64,000 nt of DNA from Alphaproteobacteria bacterium UBA3635 (GTDB taxonomy: Bacteria > Pseudomonadota > Alphaproteobacteria > Rs-D84). Position numbers and translations under genes: made by a program. Position 1 is the stretch's first letter; each line of letters opens with the position of its first letter. The notes below the pieces were generated by a model. That model saw nothing but the letters and a program-made list of their open reading frames with translations, made no database searches and was not told where the DNA came from. The stretch is from the NCBI GenBank assembly GCA_002373935.1, contig DFKW01000004.1:27704-91703 (forward strand), read 5' to 3'. Of the stretch, positions 1 to 46,639 are shown piece by piece.

Positions 1-800
1 TGGGGTCAGACGTCTGAATTTAGAGCATGCGGATTTAACCGATGTTCATGATATTAAATTTAATCCAAATGCAGATTATATAAATTTACGCGGCACCAAA
101 ACCAAATTACACGGTGATTTGGATTTTTCTGGTGTAATACTGCTGAATTTAGAGCGTGCAGATTTAACCGATGTTCATGATATAAAATTTAACCCAAATG
201 CAGATGAAATAAATTTGATCAACACCAAATTACATGGCGATTTGGATTTTTCTGGGGTTCAGTCATTAAATATAGAGTATGCAGATTTAACCGATGTTCG
301 CGATATTAAATTTAACCCAGAACGATTTCACAAAAATGCCGGTTTAATCGGCACAAAATTATCGGGCGATTGGGATTTTGGTAATGCTGCAGATTTGTAT
401 TTGCGCGACACCGATTTAACCCGTGTTCGCCGCATTAAATTTAATCCAAATGCCCACACCATAGATTTGGCCGGCGCGACATTGGGTGGCGATTTGGATT
501 TTTCTGGTGTTAGACGTCTGAATTTGATGCATGCGGATTTAACCGGCGTTCGCAGTATAAAATTAAAATCAAACGAATATGTGAATCTAAAGGTCGCAAA
601 ATTATCCGGCGATTGGGATTTCAGCACTGTGAAAGCCGTAGATTTGAATGACGCCGATTTAACAGATGTTCACGAGATTAAATTTAATCCGAATACAGAT
701 ATAGATTTGCGCGGGGCAAAATTATCGGGTGATTTGGATTTTAGTGATAGGGAATATATAGATATTCGCAATGCCGATTTAACCCGTGTCCGCAGTATTA
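1..800. repeat. Tandem ~123-bp coding repeats (>=6 units), near-identical at the DNA level
   Basis: e.g. nt 8-70 vs nt 503-565 (gacgtctgaatttagagcatgcggatttaaccg...) and the recurring gatttggatttttctggtgt. Confidence 0.8.
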
Positions 801-1021
801 AACTAAACCCGCAATTATACAAAAAAATAAAAAAACACTATGTGACCATAAAATACGATAATACGGTTGTTGAAATGCCTTTGTTTGCGGTGCAAAAACA
901 CGGTATTACCCTGGAAAACAAAAACGCGTTCAAAATTGCAACAAACAAAATCAAGGAATTGGGAATACGAAAAACATTATCAAATATGATGGGCAAAATC
1001 GCGAACAAGACAAATAATTAG
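2..1021 (+). CDS. Pentapeptide-repeat (A[DN]LxX-type) protein, 5' truncated at window edge; built from ~41-aa super-repeats
   Basis: Frame 2 is open from nt 2 with no upstream stop. The unit ADLTDVHDIKFNPNA..GDLDFSGV recurs at least 6 times. The C-terminal ~80 aa are unique. Confidence 0.6.
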   Translation, partial: GVRRLNLEHADLTDVHDIKFNPNADYINLRGTKTKLHGDLDFSGVILLNLERADLTDVHDIKFNPNADEINLINTKLHGDLDFSGVQSLNIEYADLTDVRDIKFNPERFHKNAGLIGTKLSGDWDFGNAADLYLRDTDLTRVRRIKFNPNAHTIDLAGATLGGDLDFSGVRRLNLMHADLTGVRSIKLKSNEYVNLKVAKLSGDWDFSTVKAVDLNDADLTDVHEIKFNPNTDIDLRGAKLSGDLDFSDREYIDIRNADLTRVRSIKLNPQLYKKIKKHYVTIKYDNTVVEMPLFAVQKHGITLENKNAFKIATNKIKELGIRKTLSNMMGKIANKTNN

Positions 1022-5078: not shown

Positions 5079-6140
5079 TTATTGCGAAACCGTTTCGTCC
5101 GATGTGGATACCGCGTTTTCATCCGACAATTCGGTCGCAGGCATCGCATCCGGTGTTGCCATGGTGACCTGGTCCATGGTGACGGTTTTGCCGCGTTCGG
5201 AATCGATACTGCGTTGCAAATCTGAAACCAATTTTTCCAAACGTTCAACAGAATCCGTATCGTTCAATGCCGTCGCGATTTGTAATGCGCCCTGTAAATT
5301 GGTCAGTGCCGCATCTTTGTTATCCAATTTCAAATATAACGCCGCACTTTTTTCCGTGTACAACATTACATCGTGGGATAATTTTTCACCCAAATCTATG
5401 TCGGTCACGCCGTTTAATTGTTCTTTGATAACCTGCATAGCGGATGCATAATCATTTATCGCATCGGCATAATCGCCACGGGCGGTGTATGCCTCGGCCC
5501 GTTCGGCATAAACATCCGCCGACACCGTGCCATCAGGATGTGACAAAGAATTTGTATAATCGGCAATCGCACCATCCCAATTTTTTTGCCACAAATTCAA
5601 CTGACCACGTTTGGCGTATAAATCACGCAACGCAACCGGGGAATTTTCAGATGTCGCCGCCACAACCAGCGCATTGTTGATATCAACCATGGCCGCGTCG
5701 TAATCTTCCAAACGCATTTCCAACAATGCCTTGTCATAAAATGCCAGGGCACTGGTCGAATCGTGTTCAATCGCAGAATTGAAATCAGCCATCGCCTTTT
5801 TATAATCGCCGATTAACATATATGCCTCGCCCCGGGCCAGGTATGCCGTGTTCGACACCGCGCCAGAATCAACAACCGCGGTTAAATCGGCAATTGCACC
5901 CTCGATATCGCCAGACGCCAATTTTTCACGACCGGAATTAAAATAATCATTTGCCTGCATCAAAATTTCTTCGTTCAATGTCGCCGGATTGTGAATCATA
6001 CCGTGACTGCGTCCCAAGATATAAAATGTTGCCGCAATGAAAAATAAAATTATAAACCAATAAACATATATTGGCGCAGACCACCCGGTTCCCGCCGGTT
6101 TGGTTGTAATTGGTTTTGTTTTTGGTGATGATTTACGCAT
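5079..6140 (-). CDS. Membrane-anchored TPR-repeat protein
   Basis: N-terminal TM helix, then repeated A..Y.....G.Y..A TPR-like units. Acidic C-terminal tail. Confidence 0.6.
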   Translation of the reverse strand: MRKSSPKTKPITTKPAGTGWSAPIYVYWFIILFFIAATFYILGRSHGMIHNPATLNEEILMQANDYFNSGREKLASGDIEGAIADLTAVVDSGAVSNTAYLARGEAYMLIGDYKKAMADFNSAIEHDSTSALAFYDKALLEMRLEDYDAAMVDINNALVVAATSENSPVALRDLYAKRGQLNLWQKNWDGAIADYTNSLSHPDGTVSADVYAERAEAYTARGDYADAINDYASAMQVIKEQLNGVTDIDLGEKLSHDVMLYTEKSAALYLKLDNKDAALTNLQGALQIATALNDTDSVERLEKLVSDLQRSIDSERGKTVTMDQVTMATPDAMPATELSDENAVSTSDETVSQ

Positions 6141-6179
6141 CGACGCCCCCCTTTTGTGTGTTCTCTTACACTAGCAATA

Positions 6180-6881
6180 TTAAAGAGTTTTCAAAAGCAG
6201 GTCAACATCTTTCTGAGGCACTTTTTTAATTTTTCCCGATTCCAAATTTCCAATGTGTAAATTACCAAAAGATTCGCGATGTAATTTTTGAACCGGCGCA
6301 CCACATGCACGCAGAACAATACGGATTTCGTTCTTTTTACCCTCGGTCACGGTTATACGCAATTTGTTTTTTCCAATTTCGGTAATTTCCATTGGACGAT
6401 ATTTTATACCATCAATTGTCGCACCATGACGCGCAATATCAAACTGATGCTTTTCACCACCGACGCGCGCAACATAAGTTCGCGGAATTTTATTTGACGG
6501 TAATGATAATTTTTGCACCAAATCACCATCATTGGTCAGCAATAATAATCCAGTTGTTTTATAATCCAATCGCCCAACATATCGCAAATGTTTATATTCG
6601 TTTGGCAAAATATCATAAATTGTTGTGCGGCCCTCTGGGTCACGCGCAGTTGTCATAACATTTAACGGTTTGTTGAAAATATATAATGCTAAATTTGATT
6701 GTGGTTGTATTTTTTTCCCATTTAATGTCACAACATCCACCGCATCATCGACGATTGTTGCCGGTGTTGTGACAACAACATCGTTTATCGCAACCGCGCC
6801 AGACGCAATTATTTTCTCGGCATCCCGTCGGGATGCAACACCGGATGCCGCAATAAATTTTGCAATTCGTTGTTTTGTCAT
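6180..6881 (-). CDS. RluB/RsuA-family rRNA pseudouridine synthase (S4 domain plus catalytic domain)
   Basis: N-terminal S4 motif RIAKFIAASGVASRRDAEKII. RsuA-family motif RLDYKTTGLLLLTNDG. Confidence 0.8.
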   Translation of the reverse strand: MTKQRIAKFIAASGVASRRDAEKIIASGAVAINDVVVTTPATIVDDAVDVVTLNGKKIQPQSNLALYIFNKPLNVMTTARDPEGRTTIYDILPNEYKHLRYVGRLDYKTTGLLLLTNDGDLVQKLSLPSNKIPRTYVARVGGEKHQFDIARHGATIDGIKYRPMEITEIGKNKLRITVTEGKKNEIRIVLRACGAPVQKLHRESFGNLHIGNLESGKIKKVPQKDVDLLLKTL

Positions 6882-7534
6882 TTTACCACCCGCGATATTG
6901 CAATTGCCGCCGCCAATTCGGCACGCAAAATTGTTTTTCCCAATGACATGCCACGCGCACCATTTTTATCCAGCGCATTAAATTCATCATCGGAAAAACC
7001 GCCCTCGGGTCCAACCAGGATATTTTTCGCACCAATAAATTCGTGTGGCAAATCCGCACCGTATGCCGCACGCTCGTCGGCAAATACTAAATCCGCAAAC
7101 GGTAAATCGGCAAATTTAATTGGTGTCGCAATTTCCGGCACAGAATTACGATTGGATTGTTCGGCGGCCTCGGTTACTATTTTTTTCATACGGTCCCAAT
7201 TTATGTGATGTGCAACGGTGCGTTCGGTAATAACCGGGACAAACCGCATGACCCCCATCTGGGTTGCCATGTTTAACATATCGTCCGTCTTTTTTATTGG
7301 GGCAAAATACAAACACACATCATTTGATGGGTCGGCGTGTGGCGTTTGATTGCCAATCGTCAAAAAATTCCCGTCGCCCGATAAATTCGCCGTGTATTCA
7401 TGTCCGTCGCCAAACACCAAACAATTATCGCGCCGCATGACGTGTACCAAATAGTGCGATACAGATTTATCAATCGCAACTTTGTCGCCCGGGGTAATAT
7501 TTTTGCCAATAAAAATTCGCGGTATGTTTTTCAT
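6878..7534 (-). CDS. rsmE: 16S rRNA (uracil1498-N3)-methyltransferase RsmE
   Basis: N-terminus RIFIGKNI...HYLVHVMR and C-terminal GPEGGFSDDE..LGKTILRAELAAAIA are typical RsmE. Confidence 0.8.
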   Translation of the reverse strand: MKNIPRIFIGKNITPGDKVAIDKSVSHYLVHVMRRDNCLVFGDGHEYTANLSGDGNFLTIGNQTPHADPSNDVCLYFAPIKKTDDMLNMATQMGVMRFVPVITERTVAHHINWDRMKKIVTEAAEQSNRNSVPEIATPIKFADLPFADLVFADERAAYGADLPHEFIGAKNILVGPEGGFSDDEFNALDKNGARGMSLGKTILRAELAAAIAISRVVK

Positions 7535-7590
7535 ATATTTTTTTATTTCTGATTTATTTTGTTGGTTTTTTCTGGTATAATAATAACACC

Positions 7591-9864
7591 ATGGCTGAGA
7601 AATTCAATATTTTATCTGCGGGCGGGTCGTCCAAAGGACTGAACATTTTCAAATCGACGGCGTATAAAGAACACGAAGCCGGCCCGATGGCGCAAATGTT
7701 TTGGGTTTTTCGTTGGAACGCGGCGATGTGGATTATTTGCGCCGTGGCATTTGCATTGGCGTTTATTTTAGAACACATGTTTCGATATGGTTGGTCGCCG
7801 GCAACCGCACAATGGGCAAAATTATTTCTGCAAAACGCATTACATTCGGGTGGTATGTCGGTTATCGCGGCGGTGCCAGGGTGGTTTTTTGGTGCAATTG
7901 TCAGGCCGGATTTTGCGGCGATTATGCCTCTGTTGCCAATTATCGCGTTTTATTTTGTGTCGGACGATACATTAACCAAAGAATTTAATCCGCATGGTGA
8001 TAAAATTTATGATGAAAAATCTTCGCGCAAGGCAACCGCCGACGATATTCGCAAAATGAAACAAAATTTCAAAAACAAAGATGGTTTGTTCAACGGATTT
8101 ATGATGGTGTTGGGCTATTTCAAAGATGGTAAAAAAACAAAACCATTGATGTTGGATGAAACATTGTCTGTATTGTGTGTTGCGCCCCCGGGGGCCGGTA
8201 AAACCGCCGGCGTTGTTATTCCAACAATCGTTGATTGCGATAATGTTTCAATGATTATCAATGACCCAAAACCTGAATTAAAGCAAAAAACATCCGGGTA
8301 TCGTGCGACGATTGGGCCGGTGTTTATTATGAATTGGGCGGGTCAAGATGACCCGGAACGCGGTATATTTTACCCGTCATGGAATCCATTGTCACCGGAA
8401 CATGTGCCGTTCGAAACCGAACAACGCGATTTGTATGTTGATACGATTTGCAAGGTTTTGGTCCCGGATGCCACAGGCACATCGGCGGACCCGCATTGGT
8501 CGATTTCTGGGCGCGCGGGATTGTCCGGATTTATTCAATATATTATTTCCAAGGTTGAACGCGCCAAGGCCGATGATTATTTTTATTCGCGTCTGCAATC
8601 GGGTGAATTTAACCAGGAAGATTCCAATGTGTTGTTGGAATATTACCTGAATATGTCCAGTAATCCAAACGCATATGCGGCGATGGGGTTATTGCAACGC
8701 GGTGAATTAAATACGATGAATTATGTCCATGTCGGGACATGGAAAAATATTCCTGATGCATGGGTCGGGCACGAGGCATCGTTATCCATGATTTTGGATT
8801 GGTTAAATTCGGCACAACTGGCAAACGCCGCCGAAATGGAAGAACGCCGCAGACAAGGCGACCAAATGGTTGCATTGGCCGACCCAATGAAGGATGTGTT
8901 AGAGGCCGCCGTGAACGAGGCCGTAGAATTCGCATATTCACACCGTGCGGTGTTGGAATTGACGCAATTGGCAAACACACCGGACAAAGAACGCGGGTCA
9001 ATATTGTCCACAATTATGGCGGGATTGGGCGTGTTCCGTAATGCGGCGGTGCGCAATCGGACATCACATTCTGATTTCCATTTCGAAGATTTGCGCGGAC
9101 TGCGTGATCCAAGGGACGGAAAAATCAAACCGGTCACCGTATATTTATCAATCAACATGGTTGATGCCCAGGCATTAAACCCAATCACCGGAATATTTAT
9201 CGAATTGATGTCGAATTATTTATTGGTAAATACCCCCGATGGCATTACATCGAACGGCAAACAGTTGGGGCCATATCCGGTGTTGTTCGTATTGGACGAA
9301 ATGCCAAAAATGCAAAAATTGGATGCCGTTATCCAAGGGCCTGATTTGGGACGCGGACAAAAAATTTCTTATTTAATTATCGGTCAAGATTTACACCAGA
9401 TTCAGGAAAAATACGGTGCGGATGCCGCCGCCACAATTATTTCAACAACGGCGGCAAAAATTGTTATGCGTCAAAACGACCCAGAAACCGCAAAACGTTT
9501 TTCCGAAATGATTGGTAATGAAATCAAAAAAGAAAAAAAGAAAAATAAAGATACCGGCGAAGAAACCGAAGAAACCAAGGCACCAAAACCGTTGTATTCG
9601 GAAATGGATATTATGACATTGGGCGAAGGCAAACAAATCGTTATATACCAAGGTTGGTATCACAGACCTATTGAAGCAACCCAAGAAAGATACTTTTTGG
9701 GCAAATCTGATATTGAAAAGAAATTATTGGCCAAGGTTGAAATGGGCGAATCTGCGCCGATGCCGGAATTTTTGGTTGCAAATCATTGTCGTGCGATGGG
9801 TTATACCGGGCAAATTCGATTTATGGACCCAACAACAAAAACTATCCGTGTTTTATCTGAATAA
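7591..9864 (+). CDS. TraG/VirD4/TrwB-family type IV secretion coupling protein (T4CP), orphan
   Basis: N-terminal TM helices. VLCVAPPGAGKTAGVVIPTIV Walker A and IINDPKPEL. Walker B VLFVLDEM. GQDLHQIQEKYG...RQNDPETAKRFSEMIG matches the TraG/VirD4 C-terminal signature. Lys/Glu-rich tail. Confidence 0.75.
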   Translation: MAEKFNILSAGGSSKGLNIFKSTAYKEHEAGPMAQMFWVFRWNAAMWIICAVAFALAFILEHMFRYGWSPATAQWAKLFLQNALHSGGMSVIAAVPGWFFGAIVRPDFAAIMPLLPIIAFYFVSDDTLTKEFNPHGDKIYDEKSSRKATADDIRKMKQNFKNKDGLFNGFMMVLGYFKDGKKTKPLMLDETLSVLCVAPPGAGKTAGVVIPTIVDCDNVSMIINDPKPELKQKTSGYRATIGPVFIMNWAGQDDPERGIFYPSWNPLSPEHVPFETEQRDLYVDTICKVLVPDATGTSADPHWSISGRAGLSGFIQYIISKVERAKADDYFYSRLQSGEFNQEDSNVLLEYYLNMSSNPNAYAAMGLLQRGELNTMNYVHVGTWKNIPDAWVGHEASLSMILDWLNSAQLANAAEMEERRRQGDQMVALADPMKDVLEAAVNEAVEFAYSHRAVLELTQLANTPDKERGSILSTIMAGLGVFRNAAVRNRTSHSDFHFEDLRGLRDPRDGKIKPVTVYLSINMVDAQALNPITGIFIELMSNYLLVNTPDGITSNGKQLGPYPVLFVLDEMPKMQKLDAVIQGPDLGRGQKISYLIIGQDLHQIQEKYGADAAATIISTTAAKIVMRQNDPETAKRFSEMIGNEIKKEKKKNKDTGEETEETKAPKPLYSEMDIMTLGEGKQIVIYQGWYHRPIEATQERYFLGKSDIEKKLLAKVEMGESAPMPEFLVANHCRAMGYTGQIRFMDPTTKTIRVLSE

Positions 9865-9867
9865 AAT

Positions 9868-11127
9868 TTGATGAAAAAATTTGCATTTATTTTTGCGTGT
9901 TTGTTTATGCTGGCGGGGTGTGCGGGCGTCACATCCACGCGATTGGACAATGTGCGCGCGTCATTTGCAAATAATAATTTCACGGCATCTGCACAACAAT
10001 TTTCATCATCGAACAACATCGCCGAACAAACAGATTTGGAATTGTTGATAACGGGATATGCTCAATTTTTAGACGGCGATTACGCATCCAGTGATGAAAC
10101 ATTTGAAGAATTTAACAAACGAAATATTGATACCACATCGGGCAGTTTTGTGCGTGAGGCAACAAACATAATTGCGGGTCGTATGTCAACACCGTATCGA
10201 CCATATATGATGGATTCTTTGTTTGTGTCGTATTATCAGATTTGGGATGCAATCGGTGAAAACCGGCGCGATGATGTGCGGGTGATTATAAATCAATCAT
10301 ATGCGCGGCAACAAAAAATGTCACGCGAGTATGCCGATTTAGTGCAAAAAAATTCTGCACGCGGGGCGGATGAAAATAATTCTGAATTGATGTCCGAACT
10401 GGACCGGGCGAAATCAACATGGGGCGCGTATCGCGATATTATGAATCCGGCATTGATGTATTTGTCGGGCATTTGGTTTTTGAATGCGGGTGATTTTAGT
10501 GACGCCGAAACTTATTTGAAACGCGCCGCGGGCATGGTGCAAAACAATTCGTTTATCGCATTGGATTTAGATTTGGCGCAAAAAAATACTCGTCCCAAAG
10601 ACACAACATGGATATTTATTGAATCGGGGTTTGCACCACGTTTACGTGAACAAACAATTTCTTTGCCGGTGATAACGGGTGGTGGCATTATTTGGTCATC
10701 AATCGCGATTGCGGTTCCGGAATTTGGACGCAGCAATATTTCTATCCGTGGGGCAAAACCGTTGGCGGATGTGAATGCGATGTTTATGACCGAATTTAAC
10801 GAATACAATGTAAATGACGCACTGCGCGCGTGGGGTGCGGCATCCGCCCGCACGATTGCCCAGGCCGCCGCCTATAATTCAAACAGCAAATATTCCGGTT
10901 TAATCGGGTTGACATCAACAATATTTTCAATCGCCACAACCGATGCCGAGGTTCGTTCGTGGGCAACATTACCCGAAAATATCAGTGTTCTGCGCATGAA
11001 TACAGGCGACTTGATTACCGGTGGTTTTGGTGATATGTTAAATACAGAATTACCAAAATCTGGAAATTATTTGATATATGTGCGATTGACGGGCGGCACC
11101 CCGGTTGTGCATGTGTTCAAAATTTAA
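9868..11127 (+). CDS. Lipoprotein of unknown function
   Basis: Lipobox MLAGCAG. 419 aa, no motif recognised. Confidence 0.55.
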   Translation: MMKKFAFIFACLFMLAGCAGVTSTRLDNVRASFANNNFTASAQQFSSSNNIAEQTDLELLITGYAQFLDGDYASSDETFEEFNKRNIDTTSGSFVREATNIIAGRMSTPYRPYMMDSLFVSYYQIWDAIGENRRDDVRVIINQSYARQQKMSREYADLVQKNSARGADENNSELMSELDRAKSTWGAYRDIMNPALMYLSGIWFLNAGDFSDAETYLKRAAGMVQNNSFIALDLDLAQKNTRPKDTTWIFIESGFAPRLREQTISLPVITGGGIIWSSIAIAVPEFGRSNISIRGAKPLADVNAMFMTEFNEYNVNDALRAWGAASARTIAQAAAYNSNSKYSGLIGLTSTIFSIATTDAEVRSWATLPENISVLRMNTGDLITGGFGDMLNTELPKSGNYLIYVRLTGGTPVVHVFKI

Positions 11128-11146
11128 TTAAACCAAAGGAGAAAAC

Positions 11147-11752
11147 ATGAAAAAATTATTACCGATTGCACTGTGTGCGGTATTGGCCGGGTGCGGTGGG
11201 ACTCGCGTTGTTGATTTGGACAATGCCCGCGATGTTGCAACCATGCAAGATGTTATGGAATTAGAATATCGCGATTGGGAAAAAACCGCGGCAAATATGA
11301 CCGATTCTATGTTGAAAAGTAATGCGTTGACCGGGGTAAAAAAACCGGTGATTGCGGTGGCGAACATTAAAAACGATACTATGCAACGGTTTGATACGGA
11401 TATTTTAATTAAAAAAATCCGCACGACAATTTTGAAATCGGGTCGCGCCCAGATTGCAACAAACTTTACCGGCGAAGACACCACATCAAACAAAATGCGC
11501 AATTTGCGTGGCAATGACGAATATGATGCGGCAACATTTGCGGCAAAAGGAACATTGGTTGCACCAAACATGTCACTGTCGGGAAAAATGTTGCAACGCA
11601 ATTTGAAATTGGAATCCGGGTGGTTTTCATCGGTTGACACACGCGTAGAATATTATCTGCAACTGACATTGACTGATTTGAAAACAGGCCTTGCCGTATG
11701 GGAAGACGAACAGCCGATTGTCAAAGAAGGCACACATGCCCCAACATGGTAA
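11147..11752 (+). CDS. Lipoprotein, LpoB-like (COG3417, penicillin-binding-protein activator family)
   Basis: Lipobox LAGCGG. VIAVANIKNDT...GRAQIA and YYLQLTLTDLKTGLAVWEDEQ parallel the E. coli LpoB C-domain as I remember it. Confidence 0.45.
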   Translation: MKKLLPIALCAVLAGCGGTRVVDLDNARDVATMQDVMELEYRDWEKTAANMTDSMLKSNALTGVKKPVIAVANIKNDTMQRFDTDILIKKIRTTILKSGRAQIATNFTGEDTTSNKMRNLRGNDEYDAATFAAKGTLVAPNMSLSGKMLQRNLKLESGWFSSVDTRVEYYLQLTLTDLKTGLAVWEDEQPIVKEGTHAPTW

Positions 11753-11790: not shown

Positions 11791-11826
11791 AAAAAACACC
11801 GGCAAACACCGGTGTATTTTTTTTTA
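11791..11826. terminator. Bidirectional terminator, CACCGGTG-family hairpin
   Basis: aaaaaacaccggcaaacaccggtgtattttttttt. Confidence 0.7.
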
Positions 11827-12420
11827 CAGCAAGCACGCTAGCGTTGCGCCGGCGTTTTTCAACATAAACCATCCCGGTCTGTAATCACTGATATAAATAG
11901 TCATAATAAATACAGCCAAGATTCCAATTACAATCATAACATTTATGCGGTTGCCGCGCATGCAATAAACCGATATACAATACAGCATATACAACACCCA
12001 CGCATCGACAAAGATACTAATCACCCATATTGACCAACAATTAAATGCGCAAGAATTTAACAGCAATATCGCCGGATACATGAAAAACACGGATGCCAGA
12101 CCCTTAATCGCGATTTCCCAATCGCGTTCACCACCCGTGATTTCGGATATCAACATCAACAATCCACCCATCACAAACAGCAACGCCACCGCCAACACCG
12201 GCACAATTATCAACGCGGTAAACACCGATGTAATTGTCACCGTCGCGCCACCAATCAATCGAAATGCCAATACCAGCACCCCACCAATCAAACCATAGAT
12301 AAACGCGCGCAACATGGATTCTTCCAAATCACCATCGGCAACGATTTTTTTGAAAAAACTTTTGGGGTTTAATACCGCATCGCGAATATTTGTGAAAAAT
12401 TTTTTTGTTTTGTAATGCAT
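11824..12420 (-). CDS. Yip1-like integral membrane protein
   Basis: 198 aa, about 5 TM helices, N-terminal cytosolic segment. Fold call by topology only. Confidence 0.45.
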   Translation of the reverse strand: MHYKTKKFFTNIRDAVLNPKSFFKKIVADGDLEESMLRAFIYGLIGGVLVLAFRLIGGATVTITSVFTALIIVPVLAVALLFVMGGLLMLISEITGGERDWEIAIKGLASVFFMYPAILLLNSCAFNCWSIWVISIFVDAWVLYMLYCISVYCMRGNRINVMIVIGILAVFIMTIYISDYRPGWFMLKNAGATLACLL

Positions 12421-12490
12421 ATTTACCTCCCCTGGGATTTGCTTATTTATATTTTTGCTTTATAATTATAAAAAATCAATGGAAAAAAAC

Positions 12491-13828
12491 ATGATGAAAG
12501 TTATAATCACGGGTCGTCCAAACACGGGCAAATCAACATTATTTAACGCGCTGACAGGGTCGCGCGACGCGATTGTGCATGACCGTCCGGGTGTCACGCG
12601 CGATGTTGTTGGTGGACGCTTTCATGACCGACCGTATGAATTATTTGATACCGCCGGATTGGAAAATGCAAAAAATGGTATTGCATTGGATTCGACAAAT
12701 ATGGCGTTAAATGCCATCGCGACGGCGGACGCGGTTTTGTTCATGGTTGATGGACGCGTGGGTTTGACCGCCGCGGATATTAGTTGGGCAAAATTGATTC
12801 ATCGCAAAACAAAATCGCCAATATTGTTGTTGGTGAATAAATCTGAATCTGCAAAAAGATTGGGCGATGTGAACGAATTTTATAAACTGGGGTGTGGCGC
12901 GCCACACATGATTTCGGCGGAACATAAACGCGGAATTGATGATATTTATGAATTTTTGGATAAAATCGCCGCGGACAAAAATATCAATATCGATGCAGAT
13001 GTGACGGATTTGGACCCACGCATTAAAATCGCGGTTTTGGGTCAACCAAATGTTGGAAAATCTACATTTGTAAATCGCGTGTTGGGGGAACGGCGTCAAA
13101 TTGTGATGGATGCGCCCGGCATTACGCGCGACACGGTTAAAATACCAACGCATTTTTATGGTCGCGACATTGTGTTGATGGACACCGCCGGTTTGCGGCG
13201 AAAATCGGGCGTGACCGACGATGTTGAAACATTGTCTGCATTAAAGGCATTGGACGCGATTGAAAAATCGGATGTTGTGATATTGGTTGTGGACGCAACA
13301 AAAAATATCGAGAACCAGGCACTGGGTATCGCGGCGCGTGTGTATGACGCGGGAAAAATTTTATGTGTTGCGTTGAATAAATGGGATTTAATTGAACCAG
13401 AGATTCGGGACGAAAAATTACTGAAATTAAAACATCAGTTTTCAAATTCTTTTCATCAAATTATCAAACCGTTAATTTTGGCGATGTCGGCGGAACGCGG
13501 CACGGGTGTTCAAAATATGTTCAAACGAATTTATGAACAATACGATATTGCATCCGCCCCGGTCCCAACCAGTTTGTTAAACCGGATTGTTGAAAAATTG
13601 GTAGAACAACGCCAGCCACCCATGTCGCGATTAAAACGCGCGATGAAAATCAAATTTGCGCGCCAGGTTGGTCGTTATCCAATGCGTGTGCGCATAAATG
13701 TTGGTGGCGCGTCCGATATACCGGAATCTTATACACGGTATTTGCGGCGCGGGATTGCGACGGCGTTGCACTGGGAACACTTACCGATTGTGATTGAATA
13801 TGAAAAGGCGGAAAATCCGTTTGATTGA
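12491..13828 (+). CDS. der: Ribosome-associated GTPase Der (EngA), tandem GTPase domains
   Basis: Two G1 motifs GRPNTGKSTLFN and GQPNVGKSTFVN, DTAG twice, KH-like C-terminus. Start taken at MMKVIITG; the ORF track has a 12-aa extension. Confidence 0.9.
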   Translation: MMKVIITGRPNTGKSTLFNALTGSRDAIVHDRPGVTRDVVGGRFHDRPYELFDTAGLENAKNGIALDSTNMALNAIATADAVLFMVDGRVGLTAADISWAKLIHRKTKSPILLLVNKSESAKRLGDVNEFYKLGCGAPHMISAEHKRGIDDIYEFLDKIAADKNINIDADVTDLDPRIKIAVLGQPNVGKSTFVNRVLGERRQIVMDAPGITRDTVKIPTHFYGRDIVLMDTAGLRRKSGVTDDVETLSALKALDAIEKSDVVILVVDATKNIENQALGIAARVYDAGKILCVALNKWDLIEPEIRDEKLLKLKHQFSNSFHQIIKPLILAMSAERGTGVQNMFKRIYEQYDIASAPVPTSLLNRIVEKLVEQRQPPMSRLKRAMKIKFARQVGRYPMRVRINVGGASDIPESYTRYLRRGIATALHWEHLPIVIEYEKAENPFD

Positions 13829-13863: not shown

Positions 13864-13898
13864 AAAAAAAACACCGGTGTTTATCGGTGTTTTTTTTG
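13864..13898. terminator. Bidirectional terminator, CACCGGTG-family hairpin
   Basis: aaaaaaaacaccggtgtttatcggtgtttttttt. Confidence 0.7.
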
Positions 13899-27800: not shown

Positions 27801-27951
27801 AAAACATTCTCTCTATTTTAATAAAATATATCAAAAATCATAATGTTGCGCAATAAAAAACGACGGGCAAAAACCCGCATTTATTCAGGCAAAATTTTAT
27901 GTTGCAAACACGGCTTTTTTTGTTTAACATGCAAGCACACAACGCATCAAA

Positions 27952-28025
27952 GGCCAGGTGGCAGAGTGGTTATGCAGAGGACTGCAAATCCTTGTATGCC
28001 GGTTCGATTCCGACCCTGGCCTCCA
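27952..28025 (+). tRNA. tRNA-Cys (GCA)
   Basis: GGCCAGGTGGCAGAGTGGTTATGCAGAGGACTGCAAATCCTTGTATGCCGGTTCGATTCCGACCCTGGCCTCCA. Cloverleaf with anticodon GCA and an encoded CCA end. Confidence 0.9.
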
Positions 28026-28037
28026 ATTTTTTTCAAA

Positions 28038-29120
28038 ATGATTGATTGTTTAACTCTGACCGATTTTAGAAACCACAAAACATCGCGCATAAATACACAT
28101 GGCGCAAAAAACATTGTTATCATTGGCGAAAATGGTGCCGGCAAAACCGCCGTACTGGAGGCGATATCCATGTTATCCGGGGACCGTGGTATGCGCGGGG
28201 CGGACATGTCTGATATTGCGCGATTTGGTGGCACGGGTGGTTTTTCGGTGTTTTGTGAAACCACGGGCGACGATTTAATATCTGTATATTTTAACCCGGG
28301 CGAAAATAATCGGCACGCAAAAATAAATGACGAAAATGCCGCATTGGGGGAATTGGGAAAAATATTGCGCATTGTGTGGATTTCCCCACGCGAAGACCGT
28401 TTGTTTGTGGATAATGTCGCCGACCGGCGCGCATTTTTTGACCGCATGGCATCTAACTTTGACCCGGCACACATTGGGCGCACCGCACGATTTTCAAAAC
28501 TGTTATCGGAACGGGCGGCGGCATTAAAATCGGGCGCAGATGCACATTGGTTGGACGCATTGGATGACCAATTGGCGGGTGTTGCGGTTGCGGTGGCGAC
28601 GGGGCGCGTGCAATATGCGGGCGAATTAAATTTCTTTTTGGAAAAATTTAGTGTGTCGGTTGACGGCATTATCGAAAAAATGATAATTGCGGGCACGCCT
28701 GCGGCGGCGGCAGAACGCGAATATCGTAATTATTTGGCACAAAATCGCGAGTTGATATATGACAAAATGGTTTTGGATGGGCCACATAAATCTGATTTCG
28801 GGATGTTTAACAACGAATTAAATTTGCCGGTAAAAACCACCAGTACCGGTCAACAAAAAAACGCGTTATTTGATTTGGTTTTGGCACACACAGATTTATT
28901 ACACACAAAAACAAAACAAAACAGTATTGTATTGCTGGACGAGGCCGCCGCCCACCTGGACGCGGGGACGCGCGCAAAAATTTTCAAAAAATTAAACGAT
29001 ACACATACCCAGGTTTGGGCAACCGGATTGGATGCCGGGGCGTTTGTTGATGTGCCGGACGCCGTATTTGTCACTTGCGCGGACGGCGAAATTAGTTCTA
29101 TAATCCATCCGGAGATTTAA
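28038..29120 (+). CDS. recF: DNA replication and repair protein RecF
   Basis: LTLTDFRNHK followed by Walker A GENGAGKTAVLEAI. C-terminal signature and Walker B LLDE. Start set at MIDCLTL, downstream of the tRNA. Confidence 0.85.
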   Translation: MIDCLTLTDFRNHKTSRINTHGAKNIVIIGENGAGKTAVLEAISMLSGDRGMRGADMSDIARFGGTGGFSVFCETTGDDLISVYFNPGENNRHAKINDENAALGELGKILRIVWISPREDRLFVDNVADRRAFFDRMASNFDPAHIGRTARFSKLLSERAAALKSGADAHWLDALDDQLAGVAVAVATGRVQYAGELNFFLEKFSVSVDGIIEKMIIAGTPAAAAEREYRNYLAQNRELIYDKMVLDGPHKSDFGMFNNELNLPVKTTSTGQQKNALFDLVLAHTDLLHTKTKQNSIVLLDEAAAHLDAGTRAKIFKKLNDTHTQVWATGLDAGAFVDVPDAVFVTCADGEISSIIHPEI

Positions 29121-41657: not shown

Positions 41658-42108
41658 GACATCAGAAATCACCAGGGAGTTGATTTCGGAAAGGCACTTC
41701 AAAAGCCTGAACATAACCGGTGCAAAGTTTGCATCGTGACTCTCCCGCACTCGTCCGATTCGATTCGGCGGGGCTGTGTTTGTTGCATACATATTTTGCA
41801 CCGACATTTATTTGTCGATTTTTTTGATTTATAAATGTAAATTTTTATTCCCACTATGTGAACCCCATCGTTGTATTTGGCGGGGGTGCTGCATACAGTA
41901 ATGTATGTGGGATCATTGTTATGTTTGGTTTTTGAACACCCTAGCCGCGCTCTTCCTGATGATGGCGGTGTTTTTTTTGTGTTTTGTTTTACTGCGGGAT
42001 TTTTTCAAACCGAATCCAATTCCCAGTAAAAAAACTAAGGCCATAAAAAGTTCCGATAAAACAAAACACATCCACCGCACTAATAAAACAACGAACGGGG
42101 AGAAAGAA

Positions 42109-43644
42109 ATGAAAAAAATTTTATGTGCGATGTTGGGAATAATCGGGATGTTCATAACACCGGCTTACGCATTACCGGCGGGGTATACAGAGTTAGAGTA
42201 TATCAAATCCACCGGGACACAGTATATTGACGATATAATAAAACCTAATCAAAGATATTCATTTGAAATTAAATACAAGCATACTGTATCAGAAGGTTAT
42301 CAACCATTGTTTGCATTATACGATGGTACTTCAGGTTATTCGTATGGTTTTATGGAAGGTAGTGCAGAAAAAGGAAATTATGCCTATAGCGGCAATAGCG
42401 AAACTTTTACATTAGCATATGATACCAGCACTATATATACATTATATTACGATGGAATAAATAAAAAGGTGTTTCGTAATGGAACAGAAATTGTAGATTT
42501 TAGTGATACAACAGGTTTTTCTGGAACAACAGGTGTTGCACCAAGACTTTTCCAAATAAGAAACGGAGAACATTATAGTAGTACTTTTAGTTATTCGTTT
42601 AAAGGTTACGCATACAGTTTTAAGGTATACGATGATAATAATAATTTAGTTCGCAATATGATTCCTGCTAAACGCAACAGCGATAATGCGATTGGTATGT
42701 ACGATACGGTTGGCGGGCGGTTTTATGAAAATGCAGGTTCGGGTTCTTTCATTGCCGGCCCGGTTGCAGAAATCAAAGTTGCAACCACAAAGTATGTGGA
42801 AACGCAGTTTAGTGATTTGGGCACGCGGTTGGCGGCGGCGGTGGCGACAGTGAATACGGTCGTGACCCAGACGATTGCCCAGGCGGGGAGTATTGCAACT
42901 TTGCAGAGTGGCAAGCAAACCCGCCCAGATGAAACCTGTCCCGCCGGTAAAAAGTGCCTGCTGGTTGAGGGGACCGACGGCCAACCCCATTGGTATGAAA
43001 TATTTGACCCGATAAACCGCTGGTTAGAGGCATTTTTCAAAACAAACCCGAACGGACAACTTGTCGATGGTGGCGCAGATTTCCGCCGGTGGCAGGGTAA
43101 CCCAGATTTCCGCGAAACATATATTGATGGTTCAACATCGGTCTATGCCCGTCAATGGACGGCGGCATCGCCCGCACGCTCGATTGGTGGCTTGTATCAA
43201 ACATTGCCTGCGGGCGACATTGAAAACGCCGGCACATGGGCGGTTGAATTTGATGGCACCGAGGGCGACGGCGTAAACGCGGGCGCGGTGTATGGTATTG
43301 CAAAATGCACGTCTGTGGTGGGGACAATTGCCACAAAATTGACATCGGCGCAAGAGAGTGCGTTCTATACATTACCGGCACCGGTGGGTCAAACGGACAA
43401 TGCAAATTATCCGCGGGAAAACTTTAAAAACTGCTGGTGCAAGATGACGGCGGTGGGTGTGCCTGGTGCGGATGGAACGGCTGCAAACGGTTCTGTGTAC
43501 CCTGTAAATGCGTCGTCCTCTGCGTGGGTCTTCAGCCCCACGTTCGGTTCGGCCGCCGCTTGTGCGGGCAACTGTGCGTACGACTGCGCGTACCGCGTCC
43601 GTGCTAACGCAGATTTTAGAACCGCAGTTTTTGGTTTGGATTGA
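42109..43644 (+). CDS. Secreted protein: signal peptide, AT-rich lectin/ConA-like N-domain, GC-rich C-terminal region ending in the CWCK/CxxxCxYxCxY/DFR module
   Basis: RBS ggggagaaagaa then ATG; MKKILCAMLGIIGMFITPAYA. C-terminus ..NCWCKMTA..AWVF..AAACAGNCAYDCAYRVRANADFRTAVFGLD. ORF-track start 41905 is an upstream in-frame extension. Confidence 0.65.
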   Translation: MKKILCAMLGIIGMFITPAYALPAGYTELEYIKSTGTQYIDDIIKPNQRYSFEIKYKHTVSEGYQPLFALYDGTSGYSYGFMEGSAEKGNYAYSGNSETFTLAYDTSTIYTLYYDGINKKVFRNGTEIVDFSDTTGFSGTTGVAPRLFQIRNGEHYSSTFSYSFKGYAYSFKVYDDNNNLVRNMIPAKRNSDNAIGMYDTVGGRFYENAGSGSFIAGPVAEIKVATTKYVETQFSDLGTRLAAAVATVNTVVTQTIAQAGSIATLQSGKQTRPDETCPAGKKCLLVEGTDGQPHWYEIFDPINRWLEAFFKTNPNGQLVDGGADFRRWQGNPDFRETYIDGSTSVYARQWTAASPARSIGGLYQTLPAGDIENAGTWAVEFDGTEGDGVNAGAVYGIAKCTSVVGTIATKLTSAQESAFYTLPAPVGQTDNANYPRENFKNCWCKMTAVGVPGADGTAANGSVYPVNASSSAWVFSPTFGSAAACAGNCAYDCAYRVRANADFRTAVFGLD

Positions 43645-45704: not shown

Positions 45705-46058
45705 ATGGTTAAGAAAAATGTAAGACATCGTGAGGAAAATTATTATTCTGTGCGTGTGGTTGGCGAAAACAATCGTGATTTGTTTATTGTGCCATGGCAT
45801 GGAAATGTTGAATCTTTGGCGCGTGATGTAAATGAAATAACAAACAAAAAATGGACCCGGATTAAAGTTTTGAAATATACTCAATATGTCGATTTATATA
45901 AAAAATCCGGTTCGCCTATCGTTTGTCAGCGGCGCGCAATGTTAAAAATTGACCGTATGGGCAGTGGTTCTTTGTGTACCAAGGTTGATGAAAATTTAAT
46001 GCGAAATGGCGCGATACCGCAAAATATTTTGGCTTTCTTTGGCGAACATCAAAAATAA
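45705..46058 (+). CDS. Hypothetical protein (117 aa), low-GC
   Basis: RBS aaagga 7 bp upstream. No recognisable motif. Confidence 0.5.
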   Translation: MVKKNVRHREENYYSVRVVGENNRDLFIVPWHGNVESLARDVNEITNKKWTRIKVLKYTQYVDLYKKSGSPIVCQRRAMLKIDRMGSGSLCTKVDENLMRNGAIPQNILAFFGEHQK

Positions 46059-46074
46059 AAAAAAGGATACACCC

Positions 46075-46632
46075 ATGCCCAGACATAAAATCGTTTATAA
46101 ATATTCTTGTAAAATTTATTCGGTAAATTCACGCGATGCAAAAAATATAGATTTGCCGGAAAATATGTCCGGGGATGAATTTGCAAAAATTATCGAACGA
46201 CAAAATTTAATTGATGTCACAAAAATATCACTGGTGCGGACAAAGTGTGTTTATGATTTGCGCGCAAAAACACATAATAATTTTGTTGGGAAAAATACGG
46301 TATTAAATATCTATGTCGATGATACGGTGAGAACAGAACGCGATATTCGCAATATGCTGGAACGAAAATACAAATCAAATATATATGGCGTTCCAAACAC
46401 AAATACAAATTTACCGTTTGTTTTGACGCGGGTTATACCACAAACCAAATATGGGGTTGTTTATGGAACAGACTGTGAAAAATCATGGACAGAAAATCAC
46501 GCAACCGTTGAAAAACCAAATCCAAAACGCGATGTGATTATAAATCGGTCGGGGAAACAAATTTGGCCACGCAACACCGACGCGTTGCCTCGCGTTGTCC
46601 AAGAATTTTTTATCAAACGACAAAAGGACTAA
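46075..46632 (+). CDS. Hypothetical protein (185 aa), low-GC
   Basis: RBS aaaagga then ATG at 46075. The ORF-track start at 46006 is an extension overlapping the previous gene. Confidence 0.5.
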   Translation: MPRHKIVYKYSCKIYSVNSRDAKNIDLPENMSGDEFAKIIERQNLIDVTKISLVRTKCVYDLRAKTHNNFVGKNTVLNIYVDDTVRTERDIRNMLERKYKSNIYGVPNTNTNLPFVLTRVIPQTKYGVVYGTDCEKSWTENHATVEKPNPKRDVIINRSGKQIWPRNTDALPRVVQEFFIKRQKD

Positions 46633-46639
46633 TTTTAAC

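What the first reader, a model, noticed from the sequence alone, without database searches (positions are those of the whole stretch)
7591..11752. Orphan TraG/VirD4-family coupling protein with no T4SS channel genes, followed by two lipoproteins
A 757-aa T4CP has two N-terminal TM helices, Walker A and B motifs, the conserved C-terminal QLxxxYG...TAxxxSxxxG block and a charged tail. It is flanked by rsmE on one side and two lipoproteins on the other. One lipoprotein is 419 aa and unknown; the other is 201 aa and LpoB-like. There are no VirB/Dot/Tra channel genes in the window. An orphan T4CP could serve a T4SS encoded elsewhere, as in split T4SS loci of intracellular bacteria. It could also be a relic of an integrated conjugative element.
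Basis: partly seen in the sequence, partly recalled or inferred. Interest (0 to 1): 0.55.

Follow-up and report, generated by a model that had tools for sequence, protein, structure and literature searches.

The report
Core coupling ATPase of split T4SS
This is a genuine type IV secretion coupling ATPase, kept as a strictly conserved chromosomal gene in a tiny-genome gut bacterium (Candidatus Enterousia); it looks orphan only because other secretion-system genes (VirB3/VirB4 in relatives) lie in separate small islands of the chromosome.

Summary
Window 7591-9864 encodes a 757-aa VirD4/TraG-type coupling protein (T4CP) with two TM helices, Walker A/B motifs and an all-alpha domain. Two lipobox lipoproteins follow it: a 418/419-aa TPR-like protein and a 201-aa LpoB-family protein. 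No channel genes lie in the 64 kb.

The organism belongs to Candidatus Enterousia (order Rs-D84, Alphaproteobacteria), gut bacteria with genomes of about 0.7-1 Mb. The T4CP is a core gene. At least 524 species genomes encode a relative. In the best 80 species loci it lies divergent to rsmE-rluB-TPR wherever enough flank is held, at 66-90% identity and dN/dS about 0.08. It is therefore not an ICE relic.

It is not orphan at genome scale. Relatives carry a conserved VirB3-VirB4 islet (78-96% identity), in one case about 30 kb away on the same contig. A more distant relative has VirB8-VirB9 about 2 kb from the T4CP.

The lipoprotein pair adjoins the T4CP in only about half of the related loci, so its link to secretion is unproven.

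Verdict: an undescribed member of a known kind, of moderate interest.

The parts
7591..9864 (+). VirD4/TraG-family type IV coupling protein (T4CP), 757 aa
   Evidence: Pfam PF02534 2e-54, PF12696, PF10412. Foldseek matches to Cagbeta and TrwB. More than 1600 homologs, with hundreds at 68-94% identity and full length.
7714..7770 (+). T4CP transmembrane helix 1 (aa 42-60)
   Evidence: Kyte-Doolittle window score 2.15; helical in the AlphaFold model.
7894..7962 (+). T4CP transmembrane helix 2 (about aa 102-124)
   Evidence: Kyte-Doolittle 1.6-1.7; helical in the model.
8182..8205 (+). Walker A / P-loop APPGAGKT (aa 198-205)
   Evidence: Read from the translation; G201 and K204 are invariant across the wider family. 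The Walker A regular expression did not match it.
9280..9300 (+). Walker B VLFVLDE (aa 564-570)
   Evidence: D569 is invariant.
9868..11127 (+). Outer-membrane-type lipoprotein Lp419 (lipobox LAGC), with an N-terminal TPR-like helical domain and a C-terminal alpha/beta domain of unknown fold
   Evidence: No Pfam or NCBIfam family. 473 homologs found, all in this group of Alphaproteobacteria MAGs as far as they are named. Model pLDDT 79.8 with only generic TPR matches in the PDB. It starts 3-6 nt after the T4CP stop.
11147..11752 (+). LpoB-family lipoprotein, 201 aa (lipobox LAGC)
   Evidence: PF13036 1e-31; TIGR02722 122.5 bits, above the cutoff of 110.55. dN/dS 0.07-0.11.
11796..11815 (.). 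Bidirectional intrinsic-terminator-like hairpin closing the T4CP-Lp419-LpoB unit and the convergent 198-aa membrane-protein gene
   Evidence: A near-identical hairpin recurs at 13864-13897.
6878..7534 (-). rsmE, the divergent neighbour of the T4CP conserved across the related loci (56-nt intergenic region 7535-7590)
   Evidence: PF04452 3e-32. Adjacent and divergent to the T4CP in every related locus with enough flank.
5079..6881 (-). Membrane-anchored TPR protein (5079-6140) and an RluB-like pseudouridine synthase (6180-6881), the rest of the conserved divergent block

Best explanation
The 757-aa protein is the substrate-receptor ATPase (VirD4-type coupling protein) of a chromosomal, vertically inherited VirB/VirD4-type type IV secretion system. 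In Candidatus Enterousia (order Rs-D84) the genes of that system are dispersed in small islets among housekeeping genes.

Shown:
- It has the full T4CP architecture.
- It is a core gene of the clade, in fixed synteny next to rsmE and under strong purifying selection.
- Relatives carry an equally conserved VirB3-VirB4-(207-aa secreted protein) islet elsewhere on the chromosome.
- A more distant member of the same T4CP subfamily sits 2 kb from VirB8-VirB9.
- The nearest plasmid homologs of both the T4CP and the VirB4 come from one canonical VirB4-B8-B9-B10-B11-T4CP cluster.

Inferred:
- The window's own genome also carries the VirB islets.
- The inner-membrane-anchored ATPase, presumably a hexamer, recruits substrates and passes them to that channel.
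- The substrates are more likely proteins than DNA. No relaxase was seen, and the gene is a core gene of a bacterium with a genome below 1 Mb that is suspected to depend on a partner organism.
- Recruitment is probably helped by a conserved accessory set that flanks the T4CP in other lineages and is unlinked in Enterousia: a membrane protein, a 168-320-aa protein and a SUKH-fold protein.
- The two lipoproteins are co-transcribed with the T4CP here, but they are most likely an independent envelope module (an LpoB-family protein plus a TPR lipoprotein) that shares the transcription unit.
For: T4CP identity:
- Pfam, TM helices, Walker B and the invariant P-loop residues.
- Fold match to Cagbeta and TrwB.

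Clade and genome size:
- Record titles name Candidatus Enterousia, and one complete chromosome is 716,531 bp.
- Genomes mostly below 1 Mb, with reduced metabolism and a suspected partner-dependent lifestyle (PMC12306168).

Core-gene status:
- 524 species genomes encode a relative.
- TPR-rluB-rsmE lies divergent to the T4CP in every locus with enough flank. T4CP identity of 66-90% is comparable to Der (68-91%) and higher than rsmE or rluB.
- dN/dS 0.075-0.094.

VirB genes in the clade:
- L073 has VirB3 (PF05101, weak) and VirB4 (phmmer 6.5e-121; PF03135; TIGR00929 6.5e-107) 5.5 kb from the T4CP.
- VirB4 has at least 1462 homologs, and the top 120 are 78-96% identical.
- In GCA_017475605.1, contig JAFVFD010000005.1 carries the T4CP (locus range 340,719-362,992) and VirB3-VirB4 (locus range 308,701-331,121).
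- The same islet occurs in L174-L176.
- L162 has the T4CP followed within 2 kb by VirB8 (PF04335 5e-19) and VirB9 (PF03524 7e-16).
- The nearest plasmid T4CP (33% identity) lies in a VirB4/8/9/10/11 cluster with a MobA/MobL relaxase. The Enterousia VirB4 is 31% identical to that plasmid's VirB4 over its full length, with the Walker A motif intact.

Accessory set.

Precedent for a dispersed, vertically inherited vir system: the Rickettsia archipelago of five islets (PMC2653234).
Against: - Only VirB3 and VirB4 (plus an unknown 207-aa secreted protein) were seen in Enterousia-type genomes. VirB6, B8, B9, B10 and B11 were not found in about 2.9 Mb of related loci, and whole genomes could not be scanned.
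- The window's own genome could not be examined beyond the 64 kb.
- The T4CP scores far below the cutoffs of every NCBIfam VirD4/TraG equivalog, so it is a separate clade whose partners need not be canonical.
- No substrate, relaxase or effector is identified.
- The tight T4CP-Lp419-LpoB spacing here, with no internal terminator, would also fit a functional link that this explanation plays down.
Confidence: 0.7

Rival explanations
1. Relic of an integrated conjugative element: a leftover T4CP decaying after loss of the rest of the element.
For: Channel genes and a relaxase are absent locally. The nearest characterised homologs are on conjugative or mobilizable plasmids.
Against: - The chromosomal position is the same in the 80 species loci kept and in deeper termite-gut relatives.
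- The ORF is intact and full length in hundreds of genomes.
- dN/dS is about 0.08.
- GC and GC3 match the neighbouring genes.
- The nearest tRNA is 18 kb away, and no flanking direct repeats exceed chance-level short matches.
- No integrase was seen among the window proteins examined.
Confidence: 0.03
2. The T4CP, the 419-aa lipoprotein and the LpoB-like lipoprotein form one functional unit. The lipoproteins would be lineage-specific outer-membrane or periplasmic parts of the secretion apparatus, for example replacing or docking a VirB7/9/10-type core.
For: - Same strand, with gaps of 3-6 nt and 19 nt, and a single terminator after the third gene.
- The arrangement is kept in the window's sublineage, in other Enterousia groups, in a Hadza-gut relative and in a termite-gut 'Rickettsiales bacterium' MAG.
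- No VirB7/9/10 has yet been seen in Enterousia-type loci.
- The Lp419 family appears restricted to this clade.
Against: - The pair is adjacent in only about 41 of 86 loci, with several independent losses of adjacency.
- It lies 8.9 kb away, beside der, in L166.
- It is absent from the T4CP cluster of the second lineage and of L162.
- Lp419 has far fewer detected homologs (473) than the T4CP (more than 1600) or VirB4 (more than 1400).
- LpoB-family lipoproteins occur widely in Proteobacteria without a T4SS (family knowledge: TIGR02722/PF13036).
- Lp419 evolves three times faster than the T4CP.
Confidence: 0.15
3. The system moves DNA (conjugation, DNA release or uptake) rather than proteins, with the T4CP acting as a relaxosome receptor.
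For: Pfam family names and the nearest plasmid relatives are conjugative. The Sphingosinicella cluster has a MobA/MobL relaxase.
Against: - phmmer with that relaxase fragment found nothing in 2.7 Mb of related loci.
- The gene is fixed in a core housekeeping context, with no mobile-element features.
- The conserved partners next to the T4CP in relatives are a SUKH-fold protein and small proteins of unknown fold, not relaxosome proteins.
Confidence: 0.12
4. A T4SS-independent job for a domesticated T4CP, for example an FtsK-like DNA pump or another membrane ATPase role in a reduced genome.
For: The gene is isolated among translation and ribosome-biogenesis genes. It is conserved as strongly as an essential GTPase. 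It forms a distinct clade below all equivalog cutoffs.
Against: VirB3 and VirB4 are co-conserved in the same genomes. Members of the same subfamily lie beside VirB8 and VirB9. The fold and motifs are those of VirD4 and TrwB, not FtsK.
Confidence: 0.07

Closest known systems
Rickettsiales vir homolog (rvh) type IV secretion system
   Same: Both are chromosomal and vertically inherited vir-type T4SS in a reduced-genome alphaproteobacterium, with genes split into several islets among housekeeping genes (PMC2653234). Here there is a T4CP islet and a separate VirB3-VirB4 islet.
   Different: In Rickettsia virD4 sits with virB8-virB11 in one islet, whereas here the T4CP stands alone next to rsmE. 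The Rickettsia-type VirD4 model NF010472 gives only 92 bits against a cutoff of 728. The rvh hallmarks (virB6 proliferation, duplicated virB4/8/9) were not tested. The organism is a gut bacterium of order Rs-D84, not Rickettsiales.
VirD4/TraG coupling proteins of alphaproteobacterial conjugative plasmids (e.g. Sphingosinicella sp. BN140058 plasmid p1, NZ_CP035502.1)
   Same: It is the best plasmid match (33% identity over 78% of the protein). The same plasmid's VirB4 is the best-matching VirB4 (31% identity over the full length). The domain order is the same.
   Different: The plasmid gene lies in a contiguous VirB4-B8-B9-B10-B11-T4CP cluster with a MobA/MobL relaxase. The window gene is chromosomal, isolated and core, about 70 aa longer (757 against about 686 aa), and has no relaxase nearby.
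Helicobacter pylori Cagbeta (Cag5, PDB 8dol) and R388 TrwB (PDB 1e9r/1e9s/1gki)
   Same: The nucleotide-binding domain plus inserted all-alpha domain is shared: Foldseek E 3e-15 (Cagbeta) and 6e-12 (TrwB), target TM 0.61-0.72. A profile search hits Cag5 at 1.4e-9 and TrwB at 5.5e-3.
   Different: Sequence identity is only 12-15%. A single-sequence search of the PDB finds nothing. The functions of the known proteins (CagA delivery, plasmid DNA transfer) cannot be transferred.
Escherichia coli LpoB (activator of PBP1B), family TIGR02722 / PF13036
   Same: The 201-aa protein is a lipobox lipoprotein of the same size that scores above NCBI's equivalog cutoff.
   Different: The LpoB function is known from enterobacteria and depends on the UB2H domain of PBP1B (established knowledge, not tested here). 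Here the gene is paired with a clade-specific TPR lipoprotein and often follows a T4CP. No PBP1B was looked for.
Legionella DotL-DotM-DotN-IcmSW coupling complex (type IVB)
   Same: The resemblance is one of idea only. In related lineages the T4CP is flanked by a conserved membrane protein upstream and two small cytoplasmic proteins downstream, much as dotM precedes dotL and small adaptor proteins bind its tail.
   Different: There is no sequence relation. DotL is a weak structural match (6sz9_A, target TM 0.48). One accessory protein is SUKH-like, which is not an IcmS/IcmW fold. These genes are not in the window.

Membership tests
Type IV coupling protein (VirD4/TraG/TrwB; Pfam PF02534, PF10412, PF12696) | Family HMMs matched above their curated thresholds | tested here: met
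   PF02534 185.7 bits (gathering score 20.1), PF12696 76.9 bits (22), PF10412 66.7 bits (20.5).
Type IV coupling protein (VirD4/TraG/TrwB; Pfam PF02534, PF10412, PF12696) | N-terminal membrane anchor of two TM helices | tested here: met
   Hydropathy peaks at aa 42-60 and 102-124; both are helical in the model.
Type IV coupling protein (VirD4/TraG/TrwB; Pfam PF02534, PF10412, PF12696) | RecA-like nucleotide-binding domain with Walker A and Walker B | tested here: met
   APPGAGKT at aa 198-205 (read from the translation) and VLFVLDE at aa 564-570. G201, K204 and D569 are invariant in the wider family.
Type IV coupling protein (VirD4/TraG/TrwB; Pfam PF02534, PF10412, PF12696) | All-alpha domain inserted in the NBD; overall fold like TrwB | tested here: met
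   The model has a helical block at about aa 276-490. Foldseek matches Cagbeta and TrwB over 560-640 aligned columns, target TM 0.61-0.72.
Type IV coupling protein (VirD4/TraG/TrwB; Pfam PF02534, PF10412, PF12696) | Encoded with, or in the same genome as, a T4SS channel (at least VirB4) | tested here: inconclusive
   Not met within the 64-kb window. Met in relatives: the same contig in GCA_017475605.1, L073 and L162. The window's own genome could not be scanned.
Type IV coupling protein (VirD4/TraG/TrwB; Pfam PF02534, PF10412, PF12696) | Hexameric ATPase that binds substrates | not testable with these tools
   Needs biochemistry.
Specific orthologous groups: Agrobacterium/Rickettsia VirD4, IncP TraG, F TraD (NCBIfam equivalogs) | Score at or above the curated equivalog cutoff | tested here: not met
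   Best scores: NF045973 141.9 bits (cutoff 250); NF010450 102 (674); NF010472 92 (728); NF010424 73 (681); TIGR02759 36 (521). It is a distinct T4CP clade.
   No FtsK family appears in the Pfam or NCBIfam hits. All significant structural matches are T4CPs, followed by DndH, DotL and VirB4.
Integrative conjugative element or its remnant | Integrase, tRNA or att borders, deviant composition, patchy distribution | tested here: not met
   No tRNA within 18 kb. Only short imperfect repeats. GC 0.444 against 0.428 for the window. Fixed synteny in the 80 species loci kept.
Dispersed chromosomal vir-type T4SS (Rickettsiales rvh-like organisation) | Vertical inheritance, with vir genes in at least two separate islets | tested here: met
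   The T4CP islet and the VirB3-VirB4 islet lie about 30 kb apart on one contig. Both are conserved across the clade.
Dispersed chromosomal vir-type T4SS (Rickettsiales rvh-like organisation) | Complete scaffold (VirB6, B8, B9, B10, B11) present in the genome | not tested
None were found in the loci held, apart from VirB8 and VirB9 in the distant L162.
LpoB family (TIGR02722 / PF13036) | Lipobox lipoprotein with an HMM score above the cutoff | tested here: met
   Lipobox LAGC; 122.5 bits against a cutoff of 110.55; PF13036 110 bits.
LpoB family (TIGR02722 / PF13036) | Acts on a PBP1B with a UB2H domain | not tested
   No class A PBP was searched for in this genome.

The most novel reading that the evidence does not exclude
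Rs-D84/Enterousia bacteria have genomes below 1 Mb, lack standard nutrient transporters and are suspected to live off partner cells. They may run a stripped-down, vertically inherited T4SS as their main cell-to-cell interface.

Its parts would be VirD4, VirB3/B4, a clade-specific set of accessory proteins (including a SUKH-type immunity-like protein paired with an unknown 168-320-aa protein) and possibly the clade-specific lipoproteins Lp419 and LpoB-like standing in for a canonical VirB7/9/10 outer-membrane core. The bacteria would use it to attack or tap neighbouring gut microbes.

The evidence does not exclude this. No VirB7/9/10/11 was seen in Enterousia-type loci, the T4CP and the lipoproteins share an operon in half the related loci, and the SUKH pairing resembles toxin-immunity modules.
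Probability: 0.12. Interest if true: 0.75.

Novelty: new member of a known kind. Interest (0 to 1): 0.4.

Why it matters
Candidatus Enterousia (order Rs-D84) is a widespread, uncultured gut lineage found in humans, ruminants, birds, mice and termites. Its genomes are below 1 Mb. The one genomic survey I could read says it lacks standard transporters and may depend on a partner organism, but that survey names no interaction machinery (PMC12306168).

A coupling ATPase and a VirB4 that are both as conserved as essential GTPases point to a type IV secretion system as a core organelle of these bacteria. That gives a concrete, testable handle on how they interact with other cells.

For annotation, it shows that an 'orphan T4CP' in a reduced genome should be read as one islet of a dispersed system before it is called a mobile-element relic. 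NCBI currently labels the clade's VirB4 'hypothetical protein'.

Tried and rejected
- Single-sequence PDB searches with all three proteins found nothing. Only a family profile reached Cag5 and TrwB.
- Exact-sequence look-ups of the window's T4CP and pheT, intended to identify or extend the source contig, and of representative P0245, found nothing on record. The window could therefore not be extended.
- The flanks of the second lineage and of Enterousia were searched for VirB6, VirB10, VirB11 and a relaxase with plasmid queries. Nothing was found beyond VirB3/4 in L073 and VirB8/9 in L162. A 545-aa T2SSE ATPase in L064 is a pilus-type ATPase, not VirB11.
- By eye, the 168-320-aa accessory family seemed to carry an HNH-like motif. 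hhalign against the window's own HNH domain gave a probability of 0.3%, and Pfam gave nothing. I do not claim it.
- jackhmmer with all accessory and VirB-islet proteins found no homologs inside the window.
- Literature searches for Enterousia and Rs-D84 found no description of a T4SS. The 2023 Enterousia paper is not held.
- DotL-like (type IVB) and FtsK-like readings were considered and rejected on profile and fold evidence.

Full report
**1.
The 419-aa ORF runs 418 aa from the ATG at 9871, which is the form in the databases (P0121).
- The 757-aa protein matches T4SS-DNA_transf (2e-54), TraG-D_C and TrwB_AAD_bind, all far above Pfam's thresholds.
- It has two hydrophobic helices (aa 42-60 and about 102-124) and a Walker B motif VLFVLDE. 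A P-loop APPGAGKT is read from the translation, with G201 and K204 invariant in the wider family. A lysine/glutamate-rich stretch follows.
- An AlphaFold model (pLDDT 74) matches H. pylori Cagbeta (E 3e-15) and R388 TrwB (target TM 0.66-0.72). DotL and VirB4 match much more weakly, and no FtsK is listed.
- Both downstream proteins have an L-A-G-C lipobox. The 201-aa protein scores above the NCBIfam LpoB cutoff (122.5 against 110.55) and hits PF13036 at 1e-31. The 419-aa protein has no family.
- The rest of the window is housekeeping: mutS, truB, der, pnp, parAB, rsmG, infB, nusA, lptF/D, rlmN, metG, fabDG, mnmG, ileS, pheST. This rests on N-terminal translations read by eye and on Pfam for 26 window proteins.
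- phmmer with VirB4/6/8/9/10/11 from a plasmid finds nothing in the window.

**2. The organism.**
- The T4CP has more than 1600 database relatives. Hundreds are full length at 68-94% identity, all from Alphaproteobacteria MAGs.
- A scan of one genome per GTDB species found 524 genomes with a relative. The record titles of the best 80 name Candidatus Enterousia. They come from rumen, horse, chicken, mouse and human gut, and include a complete 716,531-bp chromosome.
- A 2-kb human-gut contig (SRR873603) is identical to the window at every codon compared.
- The literature places Enterousia in the order Rs-D84. It describes genomes mostly below 1 Mb, no respiratory chain, missing glycolytic steps, no standard transporters and a suspected partner-dependent lifestyle. 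It mentions no type IV secretion system (PMC12306168). Other papers that mention the clade add nothing on this point.

**3. It is not a relic.**
- In every related locus with enough flank, the T4CP lies divergent to rsmE-rluB-TPR. This includes termite-gut MAGs at 59-65% identity.
- Across the 80 species loci the T4CP is 66-90% identical to the window protein. That is comparable to the GTPase Der (68-91%) and higher than rsmE (53-83%) or rluB (44-82%).
- Against three relatives, dN/dS is 0.075-0.094 for the T4CP, 0.07-0.11 for the LpoB-like protein and 0.23-0.25 for Lp419.
- GC and GC3 match the neighbours. The nearest tRNA is 18 kb away. Repeats around the block are short and imperfect.
- A gene kept this tightly in a genome below 1 Mb is functional and vertically inherited.

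**4. It is not orphan at genome scale.**
- The closest plasmid T4CP is from Sphingosinicella plasmid p1 (33% identity). It sits in a textbook VirB4-VirB8-VirB9-VirB10-VirB11-T4CP cluster with a MobA/MobL relaxase.
- I used that cluster's proteins as queries against all loci fetched. Two results followed.
  - In L073, an Enterousia-type MAG with a T4CP 66% identical to the window's, an 805-aa VirB4 lies 5.5 kb from the T4CP. The evidence is phmmer 6.5e-121, PF03135, TIGR00929 at 6.5e-107, and 31% identity over the full length with Walker A intact. A 98-aa VirB3-like protein precedes it.
  - In L162, a termite-gut contig whose T4CP is of the same subfamily (47%), VirB8 (PF04335, 5e-19) and VirB9/CagX (7e-16) follow the T4CP cluster within 2 kb.
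- The Enterousia VirB4 has at least 1462 homologs, and the 120 best are 78-96% identical and full length.
- In GCA_017475605.1, one contig carries the T4CP (locus range 340,719-362,992) and VirB3-VirB4 plus a 208-aa secreted protein (locus range 308,701-331,121).
- The same three-gene islet, embedded among ychF, rpmJ and lpx genes, recurs in three further assemblies.
- The 207-aa protein has homologs about 6.5 kb from the T4CP in a second lineage (phmmer 5e-8).
- The T4CP is therefore one islet of a dispersed vir-type system. This is the organisation described for Rickettsia as an archipelago of islets (PMC2653234). The difference is that there virD4 stays with virB8-11.
- I could not show VirB6 or VirB8-11 in Enterousia itself, nor examine the window's own genome beyond 64 kb. 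Both gaps lower my confidence to about 0.7.

**5. The T4CP subfamily and its companions.**
- At 50% clustering the family has 220 representatives below 1e-30. Full-length relatives at 33-49% identity share the N-terminal region and distinctive motifs such as SGYR..GPVF, PSWNPL and KVE.A.ANDYF.
- NCBIfam places it below every VirD4/TraG/TraD equivalog cutoff. A family profile reaches Cag5 and TrwB in the PDB but not DotL.
- A metagenome scan recovered a second gut/rumen lineage (43-51% identity). There the T4CP lies in a conserved cluster: two unknown proteins, two paralogous membrane proteins, the T4CP, a 200-350-aa protein and a 140-175-aa protein.
- The 140-175-aa family is SUKH-like: 12 of 20 members hit SMI1_KNR4, with a best E-value of 1.6e-5. 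The others have no family.
- L162 has the same flanking genes.
- In Enterousia L047 the two small proteins, preceded by a 294-aa membrane protein, form their own islet 9 kb from the T4CP.
- None of these genes is in the window. They are candidates for receptor-associated or substrate proteins. The pairing of an unknown protein with a SUKH protein recalls toxin-immunity modules, but the HNH-like motif I thought I saw is not statistically supported.

**6. The two lipoproteins.**
- In the window they start 3-6 nt and 19 nt after the preceding stop codons. A bidirectional terminator-like hairpin at 11796-11815 follows, so the three genes look like one transcription unit.
- The order T4CP-Lp-LpoB-(198-aa membrane protein)-der is found in the window's sublineage, in other Enterousia groups, in a Hadza-gut contig and in a termite-gut MAG. 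It is probably ancestral.
- The pair is adjacent in only about 41 of 86 loci. Adjacency was lost several times within the T4CP tree.
- In L166 the pair lies 8.9 kb away, beside der. The other lineages' T4CP clusters lack it.
- Lp419 has about a third as many detectable homologs as the T4CP or VirB4.
- The Lp419 model (pLDDT 80) is an N-terminal TPR-like solenoid plus a C-terminal alpha/beta domain. It has only generic TPR matches.
- My reading is that the pair is an envelope module, an LpoB-family lipoprotein with a clade-specific TPR partner, that shares a transcript with the T4CP. A role in the secretion apparatus is possible (about 0.15) but not needed to explain the data.

**7. Verdict.**
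- The 'split T4SS' interpretation is supported through relatives, and the 'ICE relic' interpretation is rejected.
- Mechanistically this is a VirD4-type receptor ATPase feeding a VirB-type channel encoded elsewhere. The architecture, core status and co-conserved VirB3/B4 are shown. The rest of the channel, the substrate class and the presence of the islets in this very genome are inferred.
- It is a new, undescribed member of a known kind. Interest is moderate (0.4). A small chance (about 0.12) remains that the system is an unusually reduced or re-tooled T4SS used for interbacterial parasitism, which would be considerably more interesting.

Noticed in passing
L171 19390-22421; L174 17394-22433 (Enterousia relatives, about 6 kb downstream of the VirB3-VirB4 islet): A gene run of a 321-aa unknown protein, a PAP_PilO-family protein (420 aa), a 223-aa protein, a T2SSE ATPase (544 aa) and a T2SSF membrane protein. 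From memory, this resembles the pilN-O-P-Q-R order of the IncI plasmid R64 thin (type IVb) pilus. It could be a contact organelle for these reduced bacteria.
   Followed up: partly
L133 5559-13238; L102 6662-13875; L162 8333-13565; L047 19975-21813: Conserved companions of this T4CP subfamily in other lineages: paralogous membrane proteins upstream, and an unknown 168-350-aa protein plus a SUKH (SMI1/KNR4)-like protein downstream. In Enterousia they form a separate islet. The arrangement looks like an effector-immunity or adaptor pair, and the function is unknown.
   Followed up: partly
window 57444-59559: An EcoRI-type adenine methyltransferase (PF13651, 5e-121) is followed by a GmrSD_N + HNH nuclease. 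The stretch has low GC (0.34 for 58-60 kb against 0.43 overall) and lies between nth and pheT. It is probably a small acquired restriction or defence islet.
   Followed up: partly
window 46006-47347, 48822-49736, 52237-52695: Four ORFs with no family (208, 250, 304 and 152 aa) are wedged into the metG-queH-fabD-fabG-mnmG block. That block has only a 55-aa ORF between metG and queH and is otherwise uninterrupted in relative L001. They are lineage-specific insertions of unknown function in a very compact genome.
   Followed up: no
window 27843-29120 and tRNA-Cys 27952-28025: The mechanical recF ORF runs across tRNA-Cys on the same strand. The Pfam match begins near residue 66, so the real recF start is probably the Met at about 28035, just after the tRNA.
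   Followed up: no
window 11791-11822 and 13864-13897: Nearly the same G+C-rich hairpin with T/A runs on both sides (AAAAAACACCGG...CCGGTGTTTTTT) closes two convergent gene pairs, LpoB-like/198-aa protein and der/ybaB. It appears to be a recurring bidirectional terminator motif.
   Followed up: no
window 11824-12420 (-) with der 12455-13828 (+): A 198-aa protein with about 5 predicted TM helices and no family lies divergent to der in the window and next to der in almost all related loci. It may be a conserved partner or co-regulated gene.
   Followed up: no
L066 (OZ246409.1) and L088 (CAVGNU010000002.1): The public records are titled 'Muribaculaceae bacterium' (a complete 716,531-bp chromosome) and 'Bacteroides fragilis'. 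Both carry the Enterousia-type rsmE/T4CP/Lp/LpoB locus at 66-67% identity, so they look taxonomically mislabelled.
   Followed up: no
window 119-1021 and 41905-43644: There is a 300-aa protein made of degenerate repeats of about 40 aa (weak pentapeptide-repeat hit). There is also a 579-aa ORF whose likely true start is an internal signal peptide (MKKILCAMLGIIGMF...), with no family. Both are possible surface or secreted proteins.
   Followed up: no
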